Positions 14,803 to 29,945 of a stretch of 54,941 nt of DNA are shown here, piece after piece. Location: positions 1-54,941 of IMG/VR virus record IMGVR_UViG_3300010403_000008, one strand, 5' to 3'. The notes beneath the pieces were generated by a model that did not search any database, was not told where the DNA came from, and saw only the letters and a list, made by a program, of their open reading frames with translations. The number at the start of each line of letters is the position of its first letter. Positions within the stretch are counted from its first letter, which is position 1. A program made the translations under genes and the position numbers. The stretch is from a virus. Taxonomy: Duplodnaviria > Caudoviricetes.

Positions 14803-16092
14803 ATGCCCGAATCCGCTACCGCCTCACCCCCACCCCCTGCCCCCGACTTCACCCCCCTGCCTGTCCAGCAAGACTCCAGCAGTGGTTCTGCCCCACCGAT
14901 TGTGCCGTCAGCATCCCCTCGTGAGATTGATGTTGGAAAAGCTTCAGGCGGGGCCAAGCAGGACAAGACGGGTTCGGGGATGGATGATTCGATGAGTGAT
15001 TTGGACAGGCTGTTTGCGGAGACGGAGGCAAAGCCGGAAAAGCCCGCTGGTAACGCGAAGGATGAGAAGAAGCAGTCTGACCAGTCTGGGGACGAAAAGC
15101 CTGCTGGTGAGGCAGCAGACGCCAAGGAAGAGGGGTCTGGTGAGAAGTCTGGGGAGGACAAGACTGGGAACGGAAAGGCTGTCAGTGCCCCTGAATTGAG
15201 GAAGGCGTACGAGGCCCTGAAGAAAGAGGCTGCTGAACTGAGGGAGAAAGTGAAGTCCCGTGGTCCATCCGAGGATCAGGTGAAGGAATTGCAGACGTTT
15301 AAGGAACAGTACGAATCTGAGTACAAGCGTAGGCAGGAATTGGAAAAGGAATTGGCACAGAGCGCGTACGAACGATCCCCAGAATTCAATGAGAAGCACG
15401 CTGGCCCGTTCCGTAATGCGTACCAGAACGCTCGTAATCGCATTGCACAGTTCAAGGTGACTGACAGTGAAGGGGCAACCAGACAGGCGAGTCCTGATGA
15501 TTTTGATGCGATCATGCAGATTGGGGATGATATGCAGGCAGCAACGGCTGCACGGGAACTGTTCGGGGATACGGTGGGACCGATTGTGATGATGCAGCGG
15601 GAGAAGGTGCAGGAATTGCATGGGTCAATGCAGAAAGCGATTGCAGATGCAGAAACCAACTTCACCAAACACCAGCAGGAACAGAAGGTGATGTCAGAGC
15701 GCAAGCAGGCGCATTTGAACAAGCTGTGGACGACGCTAAATACGGGTGCAGCCGAGAAGTACCCCCAACTGTTCAAGCCTGTGGATGGGGACGAAAAGGG
15801 CAATGAATTGCTTCAGAGAGGATTTGAGCTTGTAGATAAAGTGTTCATGGATGGGAGCCAAATGGACCCTGAAGAGACGATTAAACTGCACAGTCAAGTG
15901 CGCAACAGGGCAGCAGCGTTTGGGAGACTGGTGTACCAGAACCGTACGATGAGTGAGAAGATTGCTGCACTGGAGAAGGAGTTGAACGCCTTTAAGGATA
16001 GTGCCCCGAAGAATGGGGATGGGAGAGCGGGGAAGAAGGGGGAGGGGGAATTGTTTGGGGAGGATGCATTGGAGAAGTATGTTGATCGGTAG
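14803..16092 (+). CDS. Capsid scaffolding protein
   Basis: Pro-rich and acidic N-terminus with long coiled coils; lies between portal and MCP. Confidence 0.7.
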   Translation: MPESATASPPPPAPDFTPLPVQQDSSSGSAPPIVPSASPREIDVGKASGGAKQDKTGSGMDDSMSDLDRLFAETEAKPEKPAGNAKDEKKQSDQSGDEKPAGEAADAKEEGSGEKSGEDKTGNGKAVSAPELRKAYEALKKEAAELREKVKSRGPSEDQVKELQTFKEQYESEYKRRQELEKELAQSAYERSPEFNEKHAGPFRNAYQNARNRIAQFKVTDSEGATRQASPDDFDAIMQIGDDMQAATAARELFGDTVGPIVMMQREKVQELHGSMQKAIADAETNFTKHQQEQKVMSERKQAHLNKLWTTLNTGAAEKYPQLFKPVDGDEKGNELLQRGFELVDKVFMDGSQMDPEETIKLHSQVRNRAAAFGRLVYQNRTMSEKIAALEKELNAFKDSAPKNGDGRAGKKGEGELFGEDALEKYVDR

Positions 16093-16096
16093 GTTG

Positions 16097-16501
16097 TTAC
16101 GATTTGCTGTCATCGTTATGGCGATTCATTACGGCAAATGAGTCTTCCATATCGTTCGTGATTGAATCAAGTTCGCTGAACCATTGAATTAGGTCACGAT
16201 TCCATACCCATTGCTCCCCCTTAAGGTCTCCAGTCACGAGTCTGGCTCGTCCGTTAATGTCTCCGCTGACTTCATTTACAATCCAACAACAGAAGCGTCT
16301 TGATGGAAGACTTCTGCCCTTAAGCACACTGGGATTGAAATAGAAATCACCAGAATTGCTCTTTTTAATAATGGCTGCTATTTCTTCAGGTGTTTTGTTC
16401 CAAAGCTTCTTCTCATCTTCAAAGAAGTTGGATAGCATTTTCAATTTCTTTTGTGCATGTATAAGGCTTCGTTTTACGTCTTTTGATTTATGGGTTTTCA
16501 T
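16097..16501 (-). CDS. Hypothetical protein, last gene of the inserted cassette
   Basis: 134 aa AT-rich ORF overlapping the upstream gene. Confidence 0.55.
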   Translation of the reverse strand: MKTHKSKDVKRSLIHAQKKLKMLSNFFEDEKKLWNKTPEEIAAIIKKSNSGDFYFNPSVLKGRSLPSRRFCCWIVNEVSGDINGRARLVTGDLKGEQWVWNRDLIQWFSELDSITNDMEDSFAVMNRHNDDSKS

Positions 16502-17252
16502 TGGTTGTAAAATTTCGTGCGATCAGATCAAACCGTTCCCTTCCCTCCCGATTGCCAATTAGCTGCCATCCCCTCCATGTCATTCGATGTCCATTGACTA
16601 TACTAACAAGACCATAAGTAGCGGCACATGAAATTGAGCTTTTGTATTTCTTTCCGGGTCTCCAGTTCAGGGTTTCTGGCGGAAACAGGTCAGGATTCAT
16701 GTGAACGAATCTGGTGATGTTTTTCACATAATGAATAACCCCACTGGGGTCTCTTAAAAAGCATTCTCTGGCCCTGATGTGATTTGGACTATAGCGTTTA
16801 GATTGTGGTGTGTTTCTAATCTTTCCAAGATGCAGTTCTCTTGTGCGAATCCTATTCTTTTCAGACTGAACAGCGGCCAGCCATTTCGATTCATCCCTGA
16901 ACAAGATTGGGCTGTGTCCTTTTTCCCGTTGTTGTATCCCGTGATACAGATAGGCACATTCTCTTGAGCAAGAGATATTACTTCTTGTCTTCCATGTGGT
17001 TTGGAATGTTTTACCGCATTGTACGCATACCTTTTCCTTGTCGTTTATTCGGATGGAGTTTCCGGCACACTGGGTTGAGCAATACTTTCTCCACGAATGA
17101 TTTGGTTTCTCAAGCCATTCCTTTCCGCATTTCTTACAGGTTAATGTGATACGTTTTGGTCTCATAATGAGAACCTGCATAATGTGGGATGTATGCGGGC
17201 ACGCATTTGGGGTTTGAGGAGATGGAGGGTCATGTGCTGGTTCCGTTTTCAA
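16488..17252 (-). CDS. CxxC zinc-finger repeat protein, homing-endonuclease-like DNA-binding architecture
   Basis: CKKCGKE...YCSTQC and CVQCGKTF...SCSREC repeats, with C-terminal LRDPSG..HYVKNI..F and WRGWQL. True start may be the ATG at 17165. Confidence 0.55.
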   Translation of the reverse strand: MKTEPAHDPPSPQTPNACPHTSHIMQVLIMRPKRITLTCKKCGKEWLEKPNHSWRKYCSTQCAGNSIRINDKEKVCVQCGKTFQTTWKTRSNISCSRECAYLYHGIQQREKGHSPILFRDESKWLAAVQSEKNRIRTRELHLGKIRNTPQSKRYSPNHIRARECFLRDPSGVIHYVKNITRFVHMNPDLFPPETLNWRPGKKYKSSISCAATYGLVSIVNGHRMTWRGWQLIGNREGRERFDLIARNFTTNENP

Positions 17253-17754
17253 TCTGTCTCAGTCCAGACTTGATCGACTCTTCTGCCGTCAGCCTGCGTT
17301 TAGCTGCCTCCGTAGCTGCTTCTAACGTATTGAGTGATCGTTTAGATGTTGCCATCGCAATCACTCCATGACTGCTGAACTGAGCGTGGAATTTGATTCG
17401 TTCTTCGTTCGTCATTTTATCCGGGTCTGCATCCTTGACCAACATTCTTCGGATGGTTCGTCTTGAGAGCCTGTGAATTCGTCTGGTTGCATCTGCTCCA
17501 ACCATGTGAAATTCACCAGCCTTCAGCCTGCGAATTCCTTGACCCCGCACATGGGCGAAATACTTCCCCGTCTCACGCTGAACGATTAGGATTGCACGAG
17601 ACAGAATCCATGCGTGTTTCTTGAACAATTCACGTCCCGGTGTCAGTGCCTGCAATTCAGCCCTTGTGATCAATTCGTGATGCTCAATCTTGTTTAGGTA
17701 TCGAGCGATGGTCACGGAATCAATGTTGGCCTGATGTGGGATTGCTGACTGCAT
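17230..17754 (-). CDS. Accessory protein of the Cas7-like/array cassette, possibly winged-HTH
   Basis: LITRAEL...ILSRAILIVQRETGKYFAHVRGQGIRRL; starts 6 nt after array 4. Confidence 0.65.
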   Translation of the reverse strand: MQSAIPHQANIDSVTIARYLNKIEHHELITRAELQALTPGRELFKKHAWILSRAILIVQRETGKYFAHVRGQGIRRLKAGEFHMVGADATRRIHRLSRRTIRRMLVKDADPDKMTNEERIKFHAQFSSHGVIAMATSKRSLNTLEAATEAAKRRLTAEESIKSGLRQIENGTST

Positions 17755-17760
17755 AAAATA

Positions 17761-17920
17761 GAGTGGTGTGTGGTGATTTGACTTGGGGTTATGTGCAGTG
17801 CGGTAGCTTGACGTGATCTGATTTGCGGTGCTGTGGGTTACTGTGTATTGGATTGCCGTGGCGTGAAGTGGCGTGCGTTTGATTGAGTTAGTGTGGCTTG
17901 CAGTGTTTTGGTGTGACGTG
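17761..17920 (-). repeat. Pentamer guide-like array 4: 32 units of CAM-NN (plus strand NN-KTG)
   Basis: Exact 5-nt period: gaGTG gtGTG tgGTG atTTG acTTG ggGTT atGTG caGTG...; non-coding. Confidence 0.9.
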
Positions 17921-17941
17921 GAGAGAAATTGGCCCCTAAAG

Positions 17942-18071
17942 ATGGTGTGTTGTGTCGTGCGTTGTTGTGACTTGATTTAGGGTGCAGTGGAATGCTGTGG
18001 GTTGCAGTGTAATGTTGTGACTTATCGTGCTGTGGTTTTGAGTGGAGTGGCGTGACTTGGGATGTAGTGTG
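17942..18071 (-). repeat. Pentamer guide-like array 3: 26 units
   Basis: ATGgt GTGtt GTGtc GTGcg TTGtt GTGac TTGat TTAgg GTGca GTGga...; exact 5-nt period. Confidence 0.9.
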
Positions 18072-18098
18072 GAGAAATTAAACAGCACGCAATGGGGG

Positions 18099-18228
18099 AT
18101 GGTGTGGAGTGTTGTGAGTTGGCGTGTCTTGTGTTGGCACGAATTGCGGTGTCGTGTTTTGATTTAGCGTGCAGTGTTTTGAAGTGTTGTGTGTTGCGGT
18201 GCCTTGTTGTGTCCTGATGTGTTTTGGT
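18099..18228 (-). repeat. Pentamer guide-like array 2: 26 units
   Basis: ATGgt GTGga GTGtt GTGag TTGgc GTGtc...; begins 2 nt after the Cas7-like stop codon. Confidence 0.9.
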
Positions 18229-18230
18229 GA

Positions 18231-18791
18231 TTAAATTCGTTCTAACTTGGACACTTCAAATCGACCATTAGTTCCGCCCTTCTCAGCACGGAACTGGCCC
18301 AACCCAATGAACATCCCCGCATGGTCCAAATGCTCCCGTAAAATCTTCTCGTCAATCGCATCATCCAGAACGGCGATTGTAACGGTGGTCTTCCATGAAG
18401 TCAGGGTTGGGATGCAGCGAGCAACCCGCTTTCCTGAGCCTCGTATCCCGTCTGAGTTGGCGTTGATCCAGATTGGCTTGGCATCAGCACGAGTCATCCC
18501 AAGGTCCGCATCGTCCATCACGAGTAGGCCGCTCTCGAACAGCTTCGTATAGGTTCGTTTACCCTTACCCGGAACCTGTCTGCCAAGATGCTTGGCTGCT
18601 GCACAGATGCAGAACTTCAGAGCCATAGCTGGAATGATGCACCTACCAGCCTCGTTTACGCGAAGCTTTTCGAGGTAGCAGCGAACTTCAAAATCTTCGT
18701 GGGTTTCGCGGTCTGCGCGTTTGGACGTGAATGGAGCGCCTCCCCCTAACGGGGTGACGGATTGTAAGGTTACTCGGAATTTGTTTAACAT
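18231..18791 (-). CDS. Stand-alone Cas7/RAMP-like RNA-binding protein (Vipr-like)
   Basis: RAMP hallmarks: N-terminal FRVTLQSVTPL strand, IIPAMALK (IP.S.LKG-like), and a C-terminal Gly-rich loop AGMFIGLGQFRAEKGGTNGRFEV. Confidence 0.8.
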   Translation of the reverse strand: MLNKFRVTLQSVTPLGGGAPFTSKRADRETHEDFEVRCYLEKLRVNEAGRCIIPAMALKFCICAAAKHLGRQVPGKGKRTYTKLFESGLLVMDDADLGMTRADAKPIWINANSDGIRGSGKRVARCIPTLTSWKTTVTIAVLDDAIDEKILREHLDHAGMFIGLGQFRAEKGGTNGRFEVSKLERI

Positions 18792-18910
18792 GATGGAGTG
18801 ATGTGGTGTGTTTTGGTGTGCCGTGTCTTGATGTGTCGTGTGGTGTCTTGAATTGCAGTGAAGTGAGGTAGGTTGGTTTGCTGTGCAATGGTTTGTGTTG
18901 TCGTGTCGTT
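18791..18910 (-). repeat. Pentamer guide-like array 1: 24 units, decodes to an MCP-gene target
   Basis: Minus strand AACga CACga CAAca CAAac CATtg CACag CAAac CAAcc TACct CACtt CACtg CAAtt CAAga CACca CACga CACat...; abuts the Cas7-like start codon. Confidence 0.92.
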
Positions 18911-18914
18911 TCGG

Positions 18915-19064
18915 GTCCGGTTAGACCGGACAAAAAGTCCGCTCAGGTGAAAGACCAGATCGAATGGGGCTGGTCCGGTTTCCCGGAACTGAGCGGACCG
19001 AAAGTCCAAAGTGTCAGTCTTGCGCCATTCGACCGGCTTTCACACCAGTCACGGACGAGCGGAC
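18915..19064 (-). ncRNA. Structured, potentially pseudoknotted leader RNA of the cassette
   Basis: Perfect complementary pairs: 18915-21/18925-31, 18937-46/18989-98, 18953-58/18970-75, 18960-67/19025-32 and 18947-53/19037-43. Confidence 0.55.
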
Positions 19065-19091
19065 AATCCACCACTACCAGATGTTTGTCAA
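19063..19091 (-). promoter_or_regulatory. Putative sigma70 promoter driving the leader, arrays and Cas7-like operon
   Basis: Minus strand TTGACA-N17-GATTGT. Confidence 0.5.
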
Positions 19092-19103
19092 ATTGAAATC
19101 CGT

Positions 19104-19132
19104 TTGACTTTTACTTTACCGATAATTATTGT
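19104..19132 (+). promoter_or_regulatory. Putative sigma70 promoter for the MCP operon, divergent from the cassette promoter
   Basis: TTGACT-N17-TATTGT. Confidence 0.55.
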
Positions 19133-19308
19133 GCAAAACAGCTAGGCGTAATTGGCTTTCACTAGCGGCCATCACCTGTCGTTCGGGGTGGAATAAACAA
19201 TCGAACTACAGCGTAGCGGTATGGGAACCAGAAGGTTCGCTGTTCTTCAAAAGAATCCCCAACGGAATCTCTCACGTACGAGAGAAAAACTTTTAACGAA
19301 GAACTAAA

Positions 19309-20640
19309 ATGGCTAGTACACTTTCCTGTGGGGCATTTACTCAGTACCTCGTCGATCAGCTACCTGTTTATGATAAGTTGATTTTGGAGGACATTCGTCC
19401 GATGGACGGTTGGATCGGACATGTTAAGACGGGTACGTTCGAGGCGTACTCGGGCACAGAGCATACTCTGGACCGTTTCAATCACGTGTACCCGGATACA
19501 ACCAAGGCTTGGTCCCGAACTCAGGCCAGTAATTGCATCGGAACTCCTTGTGACAAAACGGAATACTGCATTGGGTGGGGTGCGACAAGAATCACTTATT
19601 TTTTGGAAGAGCAAAGTTGGGCGACGCCATTACTTTGTTTCGATCAGGAAATGCACATCACAAAAGCAAGAGAAAATTTCCGATATATTATCGGAGGAAT
19701 TCTCAAGCCCGCCACTTCGACCATCATGTCGAACTTCCTGCGTCGTCGTGCCCTCACGATTGGCACGGGCAAGAAGTGGGTGGCCAATGCCACAATGTCT
19801 GATTTCGTGCCCACCTGGGTCACTGTAGGCGGTTCTGAACTGTATCTGGACGTGACTGTGGAACCCACTTCCCGGCTCACTCCACAAATGCTTCAGCGTC
19901 GTGTGTCCCCACTCATGCTGATGGGCTATTTCGGGAAGAACCCGTTCGGGGACCGCAAATCCATTCCTTTGATCGAACTGGTCACTGGCATGGAAACTCT
20001 GTGGGACTTGGACAAGCAGGTCTGCGACAGCAACATCTCTGGCGCATGGCGGTTCACAGAATGGACGGCAGCCAACGAGTACTGGCGGTACGGCTTCAAC
20101 GGGCAGTTGGGCAACTACGCAACCCGTGCAGACCCAATGGAGATGCGGTTCAACCGTGTTGGTCCCGTGGCTGGTGGCAAGATTCGTTTCCAGTTCATCC
20201 AGCCCTACGTGAACGTCGCATCCAGTGGGGCTGGTGGTGCCCCCGGTCTCAAGTCGATTGAGAATGAAGACTGGCAGAATGCTCGTTACTCCATCAGCTT
20301 CATCTGGCACAAGATGGCGATGGAAGCACTGGTCGCAGACGCAACCCCGGTCAATCCCGAAATGCCATTCTCGTCCCGTAACTTCGGTGGACGCTGGCAG
20401 TTCGTGAAGGACAACCTGGGTGCGTGTGAGGACGGGACAGTCATTGAGAACAAGCGCGGGAACAAGGGTCAGTTCATCAGCGACTTCAAGCTGTCGATCA
20501 GACCCATGTACACCGAATTCGCGGAAGCGATCTTCCACATGCGCAATCGGGCCTGCATCACGATCTGCCCTCCGTGTGGCACTGATCCTGGGTATCCGAC
20601 TCAGAGCTACAACAGTTGCAATCCTGACTGCACACCGTAA
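19309..20640 (+). CDS. Major capsid protein
   Basis: 443 aa, follows the scaffold (apart from the insert), strongly biased codon usage, and followed by a terminator hairpin. Confidence 0.75.
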   Translation: MASTLSCGAFTQYLVDQLPVYDKLILEDIRPMDGWIGHVKTGTFEAYSGTEHTLDRFNHVYPDTTKAWSRTQASNCIGTPCDKTEYCIGWGATRITYFLEEQSWATPLLCFDQEMHITKARENFRYIIGGILKPATSTIMSNFLRRRALTIGTGKKWVANATMSDFVPTWVTVGGSELYLDVTVEPTSRLTPQMLQRRVSPLMLMGYFGKNPFGDRKSIPLIELVTGMETLWDLDKQVCDSNISGAWRFTEWTAANEYWRYGFNGQLGNYATRADPMEMRFNRVGPVAGGKIRFQFIQPYVNVASSGAGGAPGLKSIENEDWQNARYSISFIWHKMAMEALVADATPVNPEMPFSSRNFGGRWQFVKDNLGACEDGTVIENKRGNKGQFISDFKLSIRPMYTEFAEAIFHMRNRACITICPPCGTDPGYPTQSYNSCNPDCTP

Positions 20641-26993: not shown

Positions 26994-29945
26994 TTACGCT
27001 GAGTAGTTCAGTGCCCCCGCATGATGCAGATCAAGCGCCTTCTTCCTGAGCGTGTCCTTCCAGTCGTCATTCTGGGGCTTCTGTGGGGCAGCAACGGAGC
27101 GTAGCTGGAAGCCCTTTTGTCTGGCCCCTTCGATCAGTGTGGCGAGCCAGTCCATCAAGTCTGGGGACCTTCCCATTCGTTCCTTGGTTTTTATCTTAGG
27201 CTCAATTTCGATCCTGTTTCCAGCAACCATTGTCCACTCCCTGGTCATCCCATCCTCCAAAACGTCTTCAGTCAGGCCCCTAAATTGGCCAGCCTCCATA
27301 GCGTACCGGGTCATAAACCACAGTTCGGTCACAAATTTACTGAAATGTTCGTCACATCTCTTTGGTCGCATCTTGCGTTCAGACTCATCATAAATCTGAA
27401 GCTCTGTAGAGACGGGCCTTGATGTGGGCTTTCCCCCAAACTCCAGAGGATTTACGAATGGACTCCAGATACGGGAGAATGCGGTCCCAAGGGACCCCCT
27501 CCCGGTGGCGTCGTAGAATACGTGATTGGCTGGAATCCCCGCTTCAATGCACGCCTCCCTGACAAACATTACGATCTGATCTTCCGGCTCTGTATCTGTG
27601 CCAGCTTTAACTGGAATAATAACATGCGGCATCATGTGGATAATCAGGTCGCCATTGGCATCCAATCCAAACGAACCCCATCCTCCAACACAGCGATCTC
27701 CTCCAACTTCTCCGTATGCTGCATCCACTGCGTAGATTTTAGTCTGCCTATCATCTTTCCAAGCGACTTCCTCAAACGCCTTGAACTTGATTGCGATATT
27801 TCGTGTGAATATCCTGCGTCCGTTAAGCCCTGCCTTCCTGACACCCTTACATTGACTCCAGAACTGGAGACTGTCCCGACCATAGAAAGCAGCAACGGAT
27901 TCAATGCTTTTGGAATTTATCATCCAAGGGTACTTCGTTGGCTGATCTTTGGGATAATCCTCATTTGGAGAATCTGTGCCAACAAGATTAACCGTTCTGC
28001 CGTTCTCAAAACGATTATCCCAAACTGTTGTCTTGGTGATTTCCCCTTCGGTTCCCCAACCATTTTTAGGTTCAGAGATGCGGTCCAACGGATCACCGAT
28101 ACCAAGTGGATTCCCAACGAATACCCCTTTGAAGTCGTGTCCTTCGCCAGTGCCGGAGTTAAGGTTGGCTAATGCATCCAAGTAGCCAGCCTTCATTAAC
28201 TGCGATTCGTCTCCTAGTAGTCTCCTTCTTTTTTGTTTAATCCCCACGTACTTCCCTAATCCCTGCCATGAACCGCCAGAGGACATGCACGGGATGCAGT
28301 TGTGAACTACGACTCCATTTACGCTGTACGATGGGTGATTGTCAACCGAGAGATTGTAGACGCGATGTCCTGAATCACTAAATCCAACTCTTCCCTCACT
28401 CTTGTTTTCGAGAACCTCAACACTTGCCACCCAAGCGTGTTTAGTTCTTCCGTTCTCTTCGCGTCCGCCTTTCGCTTGAATGCTATCCGATGAATCCCAC
28501 CGTCGATTTCGACTGCCAGTTTCAGCCACGGGAACGCTATGTCTATTTCGTAAAAATGCCGAACGTTTTTTCTGGTTCTCCTGCCCGTCATTACTCTGAA
28601 ATGAAGTTCTGCTCCGATGAATGCTGAGGCGATTGCCTGTTCCTCTTTGGTGATTTTCAGATGATCTTCCCCGCTCTTGCGATCCCTGTTTTTCCATCTG
28701 CAAGATTCTCCGCAAAATCTCGTCCGAAACCTCGTCTTGGAAAGAATTATCGAGATGAATGGTTCCGCACATTCCTCGCATTTCCTTTGTTCTGGAAGCA
28801 TCTGGCAGAATTTCGTGCAGAACAGTTGGTTCGGGTGAGCCTGAAATGCTTTTCCGCAATGAGCACAGTTCTGCGTCGTTCGCTTTGGTCCAAGCCCATT
28901 TGCTGCTGCCCAACGACTCGCGCATGTTGTGCTGCAAAATCTGCCCCAATGTGGTGGGCGACTTGGTTTTGGTTTTACTGGTCTGTAAATTGCCTGACAG
29001 AATTCGCATGGTCTTTCTGGAAGCCTGTCTCGACAAAGAGCAGAGCAATGTTTCCTGTTTGGGTATCCTGGTCCGAGTGGTTGGTTGCAAGAGGCGCAGA
29101 GTTTCATGTATTGAGAACACCCTATCGTAAGTCTTTAACTTACTCGCGTCAACCCATCCTCTGCGTGTAAAGAACGGATGCTCAGGTGTGCAATCTATGG
29201 TTCTCCCATCCGATAACGTTACCCTTACTAACTCTCTGGCAATACTGCATTGTATTTCTGTTACTTTACCGATACCGAAAGCATTTAACACTTCTTCTCC
29301 AGGACTGATCGTTTCGATTGATTTTTTTCCTGACGGAGTATCGACTTGAGTTCCCGCCACAAAACAAATAATCCCCTTTCTTAAATCCCTAGTCTCCCCC
29401 TCAATAAGATTGTCGGTACAAATCGCGTGCTTACTATCGAGCAGATGCCCCGGAAGGGATGGGTAGCGATCTTTCGCCTGCTTGAACATATTCTTCATGT
29501 CACCCCAAACACGAAGCTCCAACCCACGAACGTCTGTGGACGAAACAAGAATGAGTGTGTTGTGGGGGAATGCGAAGTAGTCAGTCAATGCGTAACGCGT
29601 TAATGCACAATGAGTTTTTCCGCTATCTCGCGGGCCTAGCACAGCTAGGATTGTGCTTTTAAGCGTCTCCTCTAAAATCAAATCGCTCCATCTATGATGG
29701 GCGTCTTTAGGCCATAAAAGTTGCATCAGACGCTTGTAGTGGAAAAAATCCCCCATCCCCAATGTTTGACCTTGTTTCCCCTTCCAGCTTCCGCCCTTAC
29801 GTATGCAGTATAGCTCGATTTCAATTGCATCCATAACTGGCGGAAACGAAAGCCCGTACAGGTTTTTCTTCGCTTTCGGATTCCGCTTTGGGCCGCTGAA
29901 ACGTGGCACTGTGGGGTCGTTCGGATTCGCTGGATTTTCGCTCAT
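26994..29945 (-). CDS. terL: Terminase large subunit containing an intein
   Basis: Walker A GPRDSGKT, Walker B LLGDESQ, coupling motif VGNP, and nuclease motifs YAVDAAYG, YDATGRG and GRSPDLMD. Confidence 0.85.
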   Translation of the reverse strand: MSENPANPNDPTVPRFSGPKRNPKAKKNLYGLSFPPVMDAIEIELYCIRKGGSWKGKQGQTLGMGDFFHYKRLMQLLWPKDAHHRWSDLILEETLKSTILAVLGPRDSGKTHCALTRYALTDYFAFPHNTLILVSSTDVRGLELRVWGDMKNMFKQAKDRYPSLPGHLLDSKHAICTDNLIEGETRDLRKGIICFVAGTQVDTPSGKKSIETISPGEEVLNAFGIGKVTEIQCSIARELVRVTLSDGRTIDCTPEHPFFTRRGWVDASKLKTYDRVFSIHETLRLLQPTTRTRIPKQETLLCSLSRQASRKTMRILSGNLQTSKTKTKSPTTLGQILQHNMRESLGSSKWAWTKANDAELCSLRKSISGSPEPTVLHEILPDASRTKEMRGMCGTIHLDNSFQDEVSDEILRRILQMEKQGSQERGRSSENHQRGTGNRLSIHRSRTSFQSNDGQENQKKRSAFLRNRHSVPVAETGSRNRRWDSSDSIQAKGGREENGRTKHAWVASVEVLENKSEGRVGFSDSGHRVYNLSVDNHPSYSVNGVVVHNCIPCMSSGGSWQGLGKYVGIKQKRRRLLGDESQLMKAGYLDALANLNSGTGEGHDFKGVFVGNPLGIGDPLDRISEPKNGWGTEGEITKTTVWDNRFENGRTVNLVGTDSPNEDYPKDQPTKYPWMINSKSIESVAAFYGRDSLQFWSQCKGVRKAGLNGRRIFTRNIAIKFKAFEEVAWKDDRQTKIYAVDAAYGEVGGDRCVGGWGSFGLDANGDLIIHMMPHVIIPVKAGTDTEPEDQIVMFVREACIEAGIPANHVFYDATGRGSLGTAFSRIWSPFVNPLEFGGKPTSRPVSTELQIYDESERKMRPKRCDEHFSKFVTELWFMTRYAMEAGQFRGLTEDVLEDGMTREWTMVAGNRIEIEPKIKTKERMGRSPDLMDWLATLIEGARQKGFQLRSVAAPQKPQNDDWKDTLRKKALDLHHAGALNYSA
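28299..29366 (-). mobile_element. Intein (356 aa) in the TerL ATPase domain
   Basis: Begins CFVAGTQV, block B CTPEHPFFT, and ends VYNLSVDNHPSYSVNGVVVHN followed by a +1 Cys. Confidence 0.92.
28319..29107 (-). CDS. Endonuclease nested in an alternate frame of the intein: CxxC repeats plus DUF559/Vsr-like domain
   Basis: Four CxxC...(F/H)C...C repeats, then YEIDIAFPWLKLAVEIDGGIH...DAKRTEELNTLGWQVLRF. Confidence 0.85.
   Translation of the reverse strand: MKLCASCNQPLGPGYPNRKHCSALCRDRLPERPCEFCQAIYRPVKPKPSRPPHWGRFCSTTCASRWAAANGLGPKRTTQNCAHCGKAFQAHPNQLFCTKFCQMLPEQRKCEECAEPFISIILSKTRFRTRFCGESCRWKNRDRKSGEDHLKITKEEQAIASAFIGAELHFRVMTGRRTRKNVRHFYEIDIAFPWLKLAVEIDGGIHRIAFKRKADAKRTEELNTLGWQVLRFSKTRVREELDLVIQDIASTISRLTITHRTA

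What the first reader, a model, noticed from the sequence alone, without database searches (positions are those of the whole stretch)
17957..18016. Array 3 decodes to the ImmA/IrrE (HExxH) metallopeptidase motif RFTIGHELGHYF
Plus-strand dinucleotides of units 4-15 are CG TT AC AT GG CA GA CT GG CA TA TT. As codon positions 1-2 these give R-[F/L]-T-[I/M]-G-[H/Q]-[E/D]-L-G-[H/Q]-Y-[F/L], matching the RFT.AHELGH signature of ImmA/IrrE (DUF955) zinc peptidases. That family acts as anti-repressors of mobile elements and as regulators in some defence loci. I see no such gene in this genome, so the target would be in the host or another element. The orientation is opposite to array 1, which favours dsDNA rather than mRNA recognition.
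Basis: partly seen in the sequence, partly recalled or inferred. Interest (0 to 1): 0.88.

Follow-up and report, generated by a model that had tools for sequence, protein, structure and literature searches.

The report
VIPR guide array reading ImmA motif
This stretch is the core of a guide-RNA array of a recently described phage system (VIPR) that reads DNA two bases out of every three, and its variable bases spell the zinc-binding motif of ImmA/IrrE peptidases, so the phage probably silences such a gene in a rival element or in its host.

Summary
Positions 17957-18016 are units 4-15 of a 26-unit array of strict 5-nt repeats ([G/T]TG + NN), one of four arrays flanking a 186-aa gene.

That gene is a Vipr-type RAMP. 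Its family profile hits the solved "SUSP1 Vipr protein" (E 3.9e-7), and its model resembles Csm3/Cas7. The locus is therefore a VIPR system, described in three 2026 bioRxiv preprints.

The 12-unit pattern has 13 exact hits in genome contigs, 32 in metagenome contigs and 0 in viral contigs (about 0.004 expected by chance in genome contigs). All 45 are in-frame RFTIGHELGHY[F/L]. All 11 ORFs tested are PF06114.

No locus matches more than 14 of the 26 units, so the target is known at family level only.

Differences from published VIPR:
- The scaffold is GUG/UUG, not GGY.
- The arrays have 23-32 units.
- The short tails are unstructured.
- The G-rich strand is antisense to vipr.

Verdict: a new member of a known kind.

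The parts
17957..18016 (+). The finding: units 4-15 of array A2. Its NN dinucleotides equal codon positions 1-2 of RFTIGHELGHY[F/L].
   Evidence: Searches give the parsing. Searches give 45 exact hits, all in frame. Eleven of 11 tested ORFs are PF06114.
17942..18071 (+). '+' is the G-rich strand. The transcribed strand is unresolved.
   Evidence: The NN of unit 2 is TT, as in 10 of 17 family arrays that begin with ATG, so the first units may be a leader.
17763..17922 (+). Array A1, 32 units, abutting the start codon of g174. No target was found.
   Evidence: Units 5-16 gave 0 hits in viral contigs. No above-null match in the own genome or in relatives.
18099..18228 (+). Array A3, 26 units, abutting the stop codon of vipr. 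No target was found.
18793..18907 (+). Array A4, 23 units, starting 2 nt from the vipr start codon. It has a partial 1-nt-skip match to the phage's own g443 gene and to its homologues.
17923..17941 (+). Inter-array spacer after A1, beginning with the conserved GAGAAATT boundary motif. It is short and unstructured.
   Evidence: One search shows the same GGA(G)AAAT boundary in the family loci. One search gives a minimum free energy of 0 kcal/mol.
18072..18098 (+). Inter-array spacer after A2, with the same GAGAAATT motif. It is unstructured.
18231..18791 (-). vipr: a 186-aa RAMP (Cas7/Csm3-like) protein of the Vipr family.
   Evidence: The family profile against PDB hits 36pp_D 'SUSP1 Vipr protein' at E 3.9e-7. 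The AF2 model has pLDDT 94.7. Foldseek places it with type III Csm3 and type VII Cas7 at E about 4e-8. It belongs to phrog_4652 with no Pfam match. There are 13 viral loci with a homologue next to the same kind of array.
17230..17754 (-). g174: a candidate vipr-accessory (vap-like) gene, downstream of vipr beyond arrays A3-A1.
   Evidence: Homologues occupy the same position and orientation in 8 of 14 loci. The model has pLDDT 78. Its N-terminal ~75 residues resemble a winged helix only weakly (E >= 0.1).
19606..19673 (-). Best own-genome 1-nt-skip footprint of A4, inside g443 (19309-20640 +, possibly the major capsid protein). 14 of 23 units match and the skipped bases fall on codon position 3.
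   Evidence: the maximum over 300 shuffles is 11. Skip 0 and skip 2 give 8 and 9. The capsid assignment is a lead only.
16092..18929 (.). Variable island that holds the VIPR module. It is replaced by other DNA in close relatives.
   Evidence: In L167 and L168 (81-84% nt identity in flanking genes) homology stops near 16091/16066 and resumes at 18929/19145. Five related records have no vipr.

Best explanation
The stretch is the central 12 repeat units of one of four vrRNA-type arrays of a VIPR (Viral Interference Programmable Repeat) system. The system is carried on an accessory island of a complete 54.9-kb soil phage genome.

By analogy with the solved SUSP1 and P. fulva systems (inferred, not shown here), the mechanism would be as follows. 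Copies of the 186-aa Vipr RAMP polymerise along the array transcript, one protomer per 5-nt unit. Each protomer sequesters the constant triplet (here GUG/UUG on the G-rich strand) and presents the two variable bases. These pair with double-stranded DNA while skipping every third target base, and the bound filament blocks transcription.

Because the skipped base falls on the codon wobble position, the guide reads amino-acid-determining positions. Units 4-15 of this array read R-F-T-I-G-H-E-L-G-H-Y-F, the HExxH zinc-binding motif of ImmA/IrrE (Peptidase_M78) proteases. The phage has no such gene. The likely target is therefore an ImmA/IrrE gene of a resident prophage, ICE or plasmid, or of a host CapH/CapP-type defence regulator. 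Silencing it would stop that element or operon from being switched on.

Shown here: the array anatomy, the Vipr homology, and the exact in-frame matches to real ImmA genes. Inferred: expression, strand, filament formation, silencing, and the identity of the natural target.
For: Anatomy:
- Four indel-free arrays comprise 107 units, with T at position 2 in 106, G at position 3 in 97, and near-uniform positions 4-5.
- They flank a gene whose family profile hits PDB 36pp_D 'SUSP1 Vipr protein' (E 3.9e-7).
- The AF2 model of that gene (pLDDT 94.7) matches Csm3/Cas7 RAMPs (E about 4e-8; 187 matches at E <= 0.001).

Conserved module:
- A scan of viral contigs for the scaffold pattern, followed by tblastn, found 13 further loci with both a homologue of this protein and the same kind of array.
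- The layout (one array upstream of vipr, three downstream, then a small accessory gene) parallels the SUSP1 locus as described in 10.64898/2026.04.26.720920 (Results).

Target reading:
- The 12-unit pattern has 13 exact hits in genome contigs and 32 in metagenome contigs, against about 0.004 expected by chance in genome contigs.
- All 45 are in frame. Eleven of 11 tested ORFs are PF06114.
- The own genome has no PF06114 gene.

Skip rule in this clade:
- A4's best own-genome match under a 1-nt skip is 14/23, with every skipped base on a wobble position. The maximum over 300 shuffles is 11. Skips of 0 and 2 give 8 and 9.
- The equivalent array of relative L001 hits the same gene segment (11/15; shuffle maximum 9).

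Precedent and context:
- SUSP1 vrRNA4 acts through a six-unit, 18-bp footprint read at near-invariant codon positions (10.64898/2026.10.15.759431, section 6). P. fulva-clade guides mostly target lysogeny-switch regulators.
- The matched ImmA genes sit in HTH(XRE)+M78 cassettes. Homologues of the L133-type ImmA occur on 84 plasmid records, 46 of them conjugative, and in 2 phage records.
Against: - No locus matches A2 beyond the conserved motif. The best overall match is 14 of 26 units (54%) across all 45 exact hits, and 11-12/26 in four plasmid and phage homologues. The VIPR papers call targets at >= 80% NN match.
- Units 16-26 find nothing above the shuffled level in the 45 ImmA loci (best 7/11, null maximum 7).
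- Exact patterns from flanking or overlapping units found nothing in IMG/VR or in metagenomes.
- The 13 genome hits are spread over at least six phyla-level groups, so no host emerges.
- The constant triplet is KTG, not GGY, and is not among the alternatives named in the text I could read (NNNGG, YNNNG, NNNNG).
- The arrays are 23-32 units against the published 9-16.
- The tails are short and unstructured.
- The G-rich strand is antisense to vipr in 14 of 14 loci, and A4 abuts the vipr start codon. The transcribed strand, and hence the scaffold as RNA (GUG or CAC), is unresolved.
- No RNA data exist for this locus.
- Shuffled-pattern scans of the large collections could not be run.
Confidence: 0.75

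Rival explanations
1. A2 is a VIPR guide, but the ImmA reading is only a remnant or a by-product. The natural target of the full 26-unit guide would be something else or no longer exists, and the 12-unit core would be a decayed or recombined piece of an older guide.
For: The best full-length match is only 14/26. Units 16-26 match nothing in the ImmA loci. Arrays in this lineage turn over and share blocks: A2 and array 1 of relative L001 share unit runs such as GTGGA-GTGGC-GTGAC and the unusual TTATC unit, but L001's array lacks the ImmA core. In L039, two arrays share identical 3' halves.
Against: A 24-base exact in-frame match to a catalytic motif in 45 independent genes is hard to keep by drift. 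A published vrRNA works through only six units, so 12 perfect units could be enough.
Confidence: 0.17
2. The arrays are decoys or competitor-directed RNAs rather than guides for the phage's own attack. They would titrate or redirect Vipr proteins, as the solo vrRNAs of SUSP1 satellites do.
For: Solo vrRNAs that redirect a helper's VIPR to decoy sites are described in 10.64898/2026.10.15.759431 (abstract and section 8). A4 partly matches the phage's own g443 gene (14/23).
Against: The arrays lie next to an intact vipr in this genome and in 13 other loci, which is the normal effector arrangement. No multi-copy host site was found or tested.
Confidence: 0.05
3. The arrays are not guides at all. 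They would be a periodic protein-binding RNA or DNA (like the GAG/UAG triplets bound by the TRAP ring), or a CA-rich untranslated leader that helps translation of the minus-strand genes.
For: The triplet-plus-2-nt-spacer layout resembles TRAP sites (recalled, not from a call). Read on the minus strand, the arrays run straight into the start codons of vipr and g174, with no Shine-Dalgarno sequence visible.
Against: The neighbouring protein is a Vipr/Cas7-type RAMP, not a TRAP. Pfam finds nothing for it or for g174 even at E <= 10. The variable dinucleotides carry a 24-base match to a protein motif and a wobble-phased match to g443, which a mere spacer would not.
Confidence: 0.03

Closest known systems
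VIPR systems, type II (Escherichia phage SUSP1 and the Pseudomonas fulva prophage). Sources: bioRxiv 10.64898/2026.04.26.720920, 10.64898/2026.04.26.720927 and 10.64898/2026.10.15.759431.
   Same: Both are phage-borne. Both have a ~20-kDa RAMP related to the solved Vipr. Both have flanking arrays of 5-nt units with three constant and two hypervariable bases, one array upstream and three downstream of vipr, and a small accessory gene. In both, the variable bases match coding DNA with the skipped base on the wobble position, on either strand, and there is no self-target at >= 80%.
   Different: The constant triplet is GUG/UUG (or CAC/CAA if the other strand is the RNA) instead of GGY. The arrays have 23-32 units instead of 9-16. 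The tail is a short unstructured GAGAAAUU motif rather than a pseudoknot. The G-rich strand is antisense to vipr (14 of 14 loci). The G-loop residues that read G1, G2 and Y3 in SUSP1 (D177, W178, R179) align with R/Q-F-R here. Sequence similarity to SUSP1 Vipr is confined to the C-terminal ~75 residues.
Other VIPR types with 'staggered' arrays or alternative consensus (fig. S17 and S18 of 10.64898/2026.04.26.720920; I saw the legends only).
   Same: Relatives L076, L093, L114 and L120 have arrays that follow each other across a ~9-nt GGAAAT(T/A)GG boundary with a shift of register. This resembles the legend's description of staggered arrays.
   Different: I could not see the figures or the supplementary data. 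Whether this clade and its GUG scaffold are among the seven published types is therefore unknown.
Class 1 CRISPR-Cas backbone filaments (Cas7/Csm3 on crRNA).
   Same: The protein has a RAMP fold with a G-loop and thumb. It would polymerise along a guide RNA with periodic flipped bases.
   Different: There is no repeat-spacer array, no other cas genes and no contiguous spacer. The period is 5 nt, with 2 pairing bases rather than 5 of 6.
ImmA/ImmR, IrrE/DdrO and CapP/CapH modules (an M78 metallopeptidase with an XRE repressor). CapP/CapH source: 10.1101/2022.04.27.489752 and 10.64898/2026.05.16.725639, seen as search listing and abstract starts only.
   Same: The genes that carry the exact 12-codon match are PF06114 proteins. 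They lie directly downstream of HTH_3 genes (3 of 4 tested). In 2 of 6 tested cases a SMODS-domain gene lies divergently next door.
   Different: These are the presumed targets, not relatives of the array. The phage itself encodes none.

Membership tests
VIPR system (broad sense) | A small Vipr protein: a RAMP with an RRM core, a glycine-rich loop and a thumb, related to characterised Viprs. | tested here: met
   The profile of 36 family members hits PDB 36pp_D 'SUSP1 Vipr protein' at E 3.9e-7 over the thumb-to-G-loop region. The AF2 model has pLDDT 94.7. The best Foldseek hits are Csm3 and type VII Cas7 at E about 4e-8.
VIPR system (broad sense) | Intergenic arrays next to vipr made of tandem pentanucleotides with three conserved and two hypervariable positions. 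| tested here: met
   Four arrays comprise 107 units with no indels. Positions 2-3 are 99% and 91% conserved, and positions 4-5 are near uniform. The same holds in 13 other loci.
VIPR type II (SUSP1 / P. fulva clade) | The constant triplet is GGY (YNNGG repeats), with 9-16 repeats. | tested here: not met
   The triplets are GTG 57, TTG 30, ATG 7 and others 13, out of 107. The arrays have 23-32 units. This is not one of the alternatives named in the Methods text (NNNGG, YNNNG, NNNNG). The locus is therefore filed under VIPR in the broad sense ('or a related consensus'), not under type II.
VIPR type II (SUSP1 / P. fulva clade) | An invariant, structured 3' tail (a pseudoknot) after the repeat tract. 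| tested here: not met
   Only a short conserved GAGAAAUU-type boundary is present. Both inter-array spacers fold with a minimum free energy of 0 kcal/mol. Rfam finds nothing.
VIPR system (broad sense) | The NN dinucleotides match natural targets under the 1-nt skip rule at >= 80% NN, with the skipped base on the wobble position. | tested here: inconclusive
   The A2 core matches 12/12 in 45 ImmA genes, in frame, but at most 14/26 overall. A4 matches 14-15/23 in g443 genes, in wobble phase and above the shuffled level. A1 and A3 have no candidate. The large collections could be searched only for exact sub-patterns.
VIPR system (broad sense) | No self-targeting at >= 80% NN. | tested here: met
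   The best own-genome 1-nt-skip matches are A1 11/32, A2 9/26, A3 9/26 and A4 14/23.
VIPR system (broad sense) | An adjacent vipr-accessory (vap) gene with a DNA-interacting fold. | tested here: inconclusive
   g174 homologues lie in the same position in 8 of 14 loci. The model is moderate (pLDDT 78). Only weak winged-helix-like hits cover ~72-75 columns (E >= 0.1, probability up to 0.98).
VIPR system (broad sense) | vrRNAs are expressed, bound by Vipr, and silence matching dsDNA. | not testable with these tools
   No RNA data are available for this locus. Testing this needs sRNA-seq, a pull-down and a reporter assay.
ImmA/IrrE, Peptidase_M78 (PF06114), for the matched genes | A Pfam PF06114 match above the gathering score, with the HExxH motif at the matched site. 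| tested here: met
   Eleven of 11 tested ORFs score E 1.8e-19 to 7e-8. Of the 13 genome hits, L127 and L133 were not tested. The 32 metagenome hits were judged from translations that show HELGH, most of them also with a downstream E-A-[D/N]-x-F...LL[M/L] segment.
CRISPR-Cas | A repeat-spacer array with repeats of more than 20 nt, plus further cas genes. | tested here: not met
   No such repeats appear in the window. The neighbouring genes have no Cas families in Pfam, NCBIfam or PHROGs.
TRAP-type RNA-binding attenuation | A TRAP-family ring protein next to the triplet repeats. | tested here: not met
   No Pfam family at all for the flanking proteins, even at E <= 10. The flanking protein has a RAMP fold.

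The most novel reading that the evidence does not exclude
This abundant Vipr clade would be a distinct VIPR variant. It would use a different RNA scaffold (G/U-U-G, or C-A-C/A if the vipr-sense strand is the RNA), read by a G-loop in which the guanine-reading Asp of SUSP1 Vipr is replaced. Its long arrays would work through short perfect cores aimed at invariant peptide motifs rather than at whole gene segments.

On this reading, A2 would be an anti-defence or anti-induction guide. By sitting on the HExxH codons of an ImmA/CapP-type protease gene, it would stop DNA-damage-triggered de-repression of a resident prophage, ICE or CBASS-like defence operon. The target could escape only by destroying its own catalytic site. 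A4 would do the same to the capsid-like gene of related phages.
Probability: 0.25. Interest if true: 0.7.

Novelty: new member of a known kind. Interest (0 to 1): 0.5.

Why it matters
VIPR was described only in 2026 and characterised in two closely related systems of enterobacterial and Pseudomonas phages. This locus shows the same logic in an unrelated soil phage. Its Vipr clade is large: 596 clusters at 50% identity with E <= 1e-30.

The clade has a different scaffold triplet, much longer arrays and no structured tail. Studying it would show which features of the code are essential.

The ImmA reading gives a concrete, testable example of a guide placed on a catalytic motif. If the target is a CapP-type regulator, it would extend VIPR from competition between mobile elements to counter-defence.

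It is also a useful check on the scan. A reader with no tools recovered the codon-phased, wobble-skipping code from the sequence alone.

Tried and rejected
- No RNA holder is listed among the public runs. There are six DNA runs, one of them a soil metagenome that may be the source.
- Rfam at E <= 1 over 17000-19400 gave only a chance miRNA hit (E 0.49), so no hammerhead or other known RNA is present.
- The promoter and terminator scan was uninformative for the arrays.
- No tRNA genes were found.
- Exact sub-pattern scans that found nothing:
  - A2 units 4-15 in viral contigs.
  - A2 units 11-21 in viral contigs and metagenome contigs.
  - A2 units 6-15 in viral contigs.
  - A4 units 8-19 in viral contigs.
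  - A1 units 5-16 in viral contigs.
- A3 was never scanned against a collection.
- Scans of five related phage records (G001-G005, fetched whole) plus locus L001 gave above-null matches only for A4.
- Coding explanation: a 5-nt period is incompatible with coding. ORFs through the arrays on the vipr strand give H/T/N-rich junk that falsely clustered neighbouring ORFs.
- My initial TRAP-like and translation-leader ideas were dropped after the Vipr hit.
- Fifteen other loci with complex KTG arrays were tested for a Vipr of this clade, and none has one within the fetched DNA. L044 and L047 have the hallmark array ends, but the arrays lie near the locus ends, so I cannot call them solo arrays.
- A profile test of the decoded peptide against PF06114 was not run, because a decoded peptide may not be typed into the search tools.

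Full report
**Observation**

The window is a complete phage genome of 54,941 bp with direct terminal repeats. It comes from a soil metagenome. Positions 17957-18016 are units 4-15 of an array that starts at 17942.

A phase scan of both strands finds four such arrays and nothing else like them:
- A1, 17763-17922, 32 units.
- A2, 17942-18071, 26 units.
- A3, 18099-18228, 26 units.
- A4, 18793-18907, 23 units.

Each keeps a perfect 5-nt register. Over the 107 units, position 2 is T in 106 and position 3 is G in 97. Position 1 is G 60, T 37, A 8 and C 2. Positions 4-5 are nearly uniform. Tandem Repeats Finder saw only fragments of A4.

A2-A4 begin with (G)ATGG + one variable base + GTG, and A1 with GTGGTGTG. 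A1 and A2 end in GGAGA(G)AAATT and A3 in GGTGATTAAATT; A4 has no such ending.

**What it is**

The arrays flank a 186-aa minus-strand gene (18231-18791). It has no Pfam or NCBIfam family and a function-unknown PHROG, phrog_4652.

A scan of IMG/VR for eight consecutive KTGNN units was followed by tblastn. Together they showed 13 other viral loci that have both a homologue of this protein and the same kind of array.

A profile of 36 homologues hits one PDB sequence: 36pp_D, 'SUSP1 Vipr protein', at E 3.9e-7. The AlphaFold model (pLDDT 94.7) matches Csm3 and type VII Cas7 RAMPs at E about 4e-8.

That name led to three 2026 preprints:
- 10.64898/2026.04.26.720920. I read the Results, the Discussion, Methods sections 20 and 26, and found passages including figure legends.
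- 10.64898/2026.04.26.720927. I read the abstract and Results part 1.
- 10.64898/2026.10.15.759431. I read the abstract, sections 6, 8 and 17, and found passages.

They describe VIPR systems as follows:
- A ~20-kDa RAMP, Vipr, polymerises on vrRNAs made of GGY/NN pentanucleotides.
- The protein hides the GGY triplet and presents the NN bases.
- The NN bases pair with dsDNA while every third target base is skipped.
- That skipped base usually falls on the codon wobble position.
- Targets lie on either strand.
- The outcome is transcriptional silencing of competing phages, prophages and satellites.

**Testing the ImmA claim**

It found 0 matches in IMG/VR, 13 in one-genome-per-species contigs and 32 in JGI metagenome contigs. 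Chance expectation in 596 Gb on both strands is about 0.004 (my arithmetic).

All 45 matches translate in frame to RFTIGHELGHY[F/L]. Ten of 10 ORFs, plus one more, are PF06114 Peptidase_M78/IrrE above the cut-off. L127, L133 and the 32 metagenome ORFs were not put through Pfam.

The phage itself has no PF06114 gene.

Against this, the match never extends. Over all 26 units the best score is 14. Units 16-26 find nothing above shuffles in the 45 loci (7/11 against a null maximum of 7). A 22-base pattern from units 11-21 has no hit in IMG/VR or in the metagenome collection. So the protein family is identified, but the gene is not.

Three observations soften the shortfall:
- The first units look like a conserved leader. 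Of 17 family arrays that begin with ATG, the second unit's NN is TT in 10.
- A2 shares blocks of 3' units with an array of relative L001 that lacks the ImmA core.
- A published vrRNA acts through a footprint of only six units, read at near-invariant codon positions.

**Does this clade use the 1-nt skip?**

In the phage's own genome, only one array and one spacing stand out. A4 with a 1-nt skip scores 14/23 at 19606-19673. The maximum over 300 shuffles is 11, and skips of 0 and 2 give 8 and 9.

Every skipped base is a third codon position of g443 (19309-20640). g443 is possibly the major capsid protein, but that is a language-model lead only. The match is antisense to the gene.

The equivalent array of relative L001 hits an overlapping segment (11/15; shuffle maximum 9). 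A4 scores 10-15/23 on nine fetched g443 homologues.

None reaches 80%. The phage's own copy (14) is barely worse than those of its relatives (15). What A4 does is therefore open. The wobble phasing does support the rule, and the opposite senses of A2 and A4 fit dsDNA targeting.

**Context**

The module sits on an island (about 16092-18929). The island is replaced by other DNA in two close relatives. Five related records, one of them complete, have no vipr.

A 174-aa gene (17230-17754) lies downstream of vipr, beyond arrays A3-A1. It has homologues in the same place in 8 of 14 loci. Its model is moderate, and only its N-terminal ~75 residues weakly resemble winged-helix domains. It is a vap candidate, no more.

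The ImmA genes with the exact match lie directly downstream of HTH_3 (XRE) genes in 3 of 4 tested cases. A homologue of the L133 HTH is present in 20 of the 45 loci. In 2 of 6 tested cases (L133 and L161) a SMODS-domain gene lies divergently next to the pair.

Homologues of the L133-type ImmA occur on 84 plasmid records, 46 of them conjugative, and in 2 phage records. One sits next to ThiF and multiubiquitin genes. These homologues match 11-12/26 units.

This resembles the CapH/CapP regulators of defence operons (10.1101/2022.04.27.489752 and 10.64898/2026.05.16.725639; search listing and abstract starts only). It equally resembles ImmR/ImmA switches of mobile elements; that comparison is from my own knowledge.

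**How it differs from published VIPR**

- The constant triplet is GTG (57), TTG (30), ATG (7) or other (13), not GGY. It is not one of the alternatives named in the Methods. 'GUG' and 'GTG' do not occur in the discovery paper or in the competition paper; I did not search the structure paper for them. A library search for 'vrRNA' finds only these three papers.
- The arrays are 23-32 units long against the published 9-16.
- The inter-array tails are short and unstructured.
- The G-rich strand is antisense to vipr in 14 of 14 loci.
- A4 starts 2 nt from the vipr start codon, so its minus strand must lie in the vipr leader. This argues that the RNA could be the CAC/NN strand. The G-rich scaffold and the conserved 3'-side boundary argue for the plus strand. 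I could not resolve this.
- In the profile alignment, SUSP1's D177-W178-R179, which contact G1, G2 and Y3, align with R/Q-F-R in this family. That is consistent with changed scaffold specificity.
- Some relatives have back-to-back arrays with a register shift, like the 'staggered arrays' of a figure legend that I could read but not see.
- The clade is large: 3,779 representative clusters at E <= 1e-3 and 596 at E <= 1e-30.

**Verdict**

The finding is a vrRNA-type array of a VIPR system, a kind of system already in print. It is therefore a new member of a known kind, with variant features that may or may not be covered by the published types.

The ImmA/IrrE reading of units 4-15 is well supported at family level and is biologically sensible. 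The natural target, the host, the transcribed strand and the role of the other 14 units remain unknown.

Noticed in passing
window 18793-18907 versus 19606-19673: Array A4 has a wobble-phased 14/23 match, including six consecutive units, to the phage's own g443 gene, which lies only ~700 bp away. It scores 10-15/23 on g443 homologues of relatives. The upstream array of relative L001 hits the same segment. This could be autoregulation, exclusion of relatives or a decayed guide.
   Followed up: partly
window 16092-18929; loci L167 and L168: The whole VIPR module lies on an island that is absent from two close relatives (81-84% nt identity in flanking genes). Five related records have no vipr, so the module is accessory in this phage lineage.
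   Followed up: partly
window 16488-17252 (-): A 254-aa ORF with weak HNH-endonuclease PHROG hits (phrog_1271, E 5.6e-7) lies next to g174. It is not conserved in relative L001, so it is more likely a free-standing homing endonuclease than a VIPR nuclease partner.
   Followed up: no
window 26994-29945 (-): A 983-aa ORF carries an intein (PF14890, E 5.9e-10; Hint domains) and has a weak large-terminase PHROG hit.
   Followed up: no
window 18905-19030: A stretch with long inverted repeats just beyond A4 folds more stably than shuffles on both strands (z -2.3 and -2.9). From 18929 it is conserved in a relative without VIPR, so it probably belongs to the g443 upstream region rather than to the array.
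   Followed up: partly
loci L133 (4035-5480) and L161 (7142-8434); L185: HTH+ImmA pairs that carry the exact 12-codon match sit divergently next to SMODS-domain (CBASS-like) genes in two loci. A plasmid homologue sits next to ThiF and multiubiquitin genes. Both are CapH/CapP-like contexts.
   Followed up: partly
loci L044 (7607-7846) and L047 (424-562): Arrays of the same type, with ATGTT-GTG starts and GGAAAT boundaries, have no Vipr homologue of this clade in the fetched DNA. They lie near locus ends, so solo arrays cannot be claimed.
   Followed up: partly
locus L039 (reverse strand 1635-1739 and 2333-2452): Two arrays of one phage share an identical run of eight 3' units but differ in their 5' halves. 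This suggests that guides evolve by duplication and block exchange.
   Followed up: no
window, minus-strand starts at 17754 and 18791: g174 and vipr have no visible Shine-Dalgarno sequence. Their start codons are preceded directly by the CA-rich complement of the arrays.
   Followed up: no
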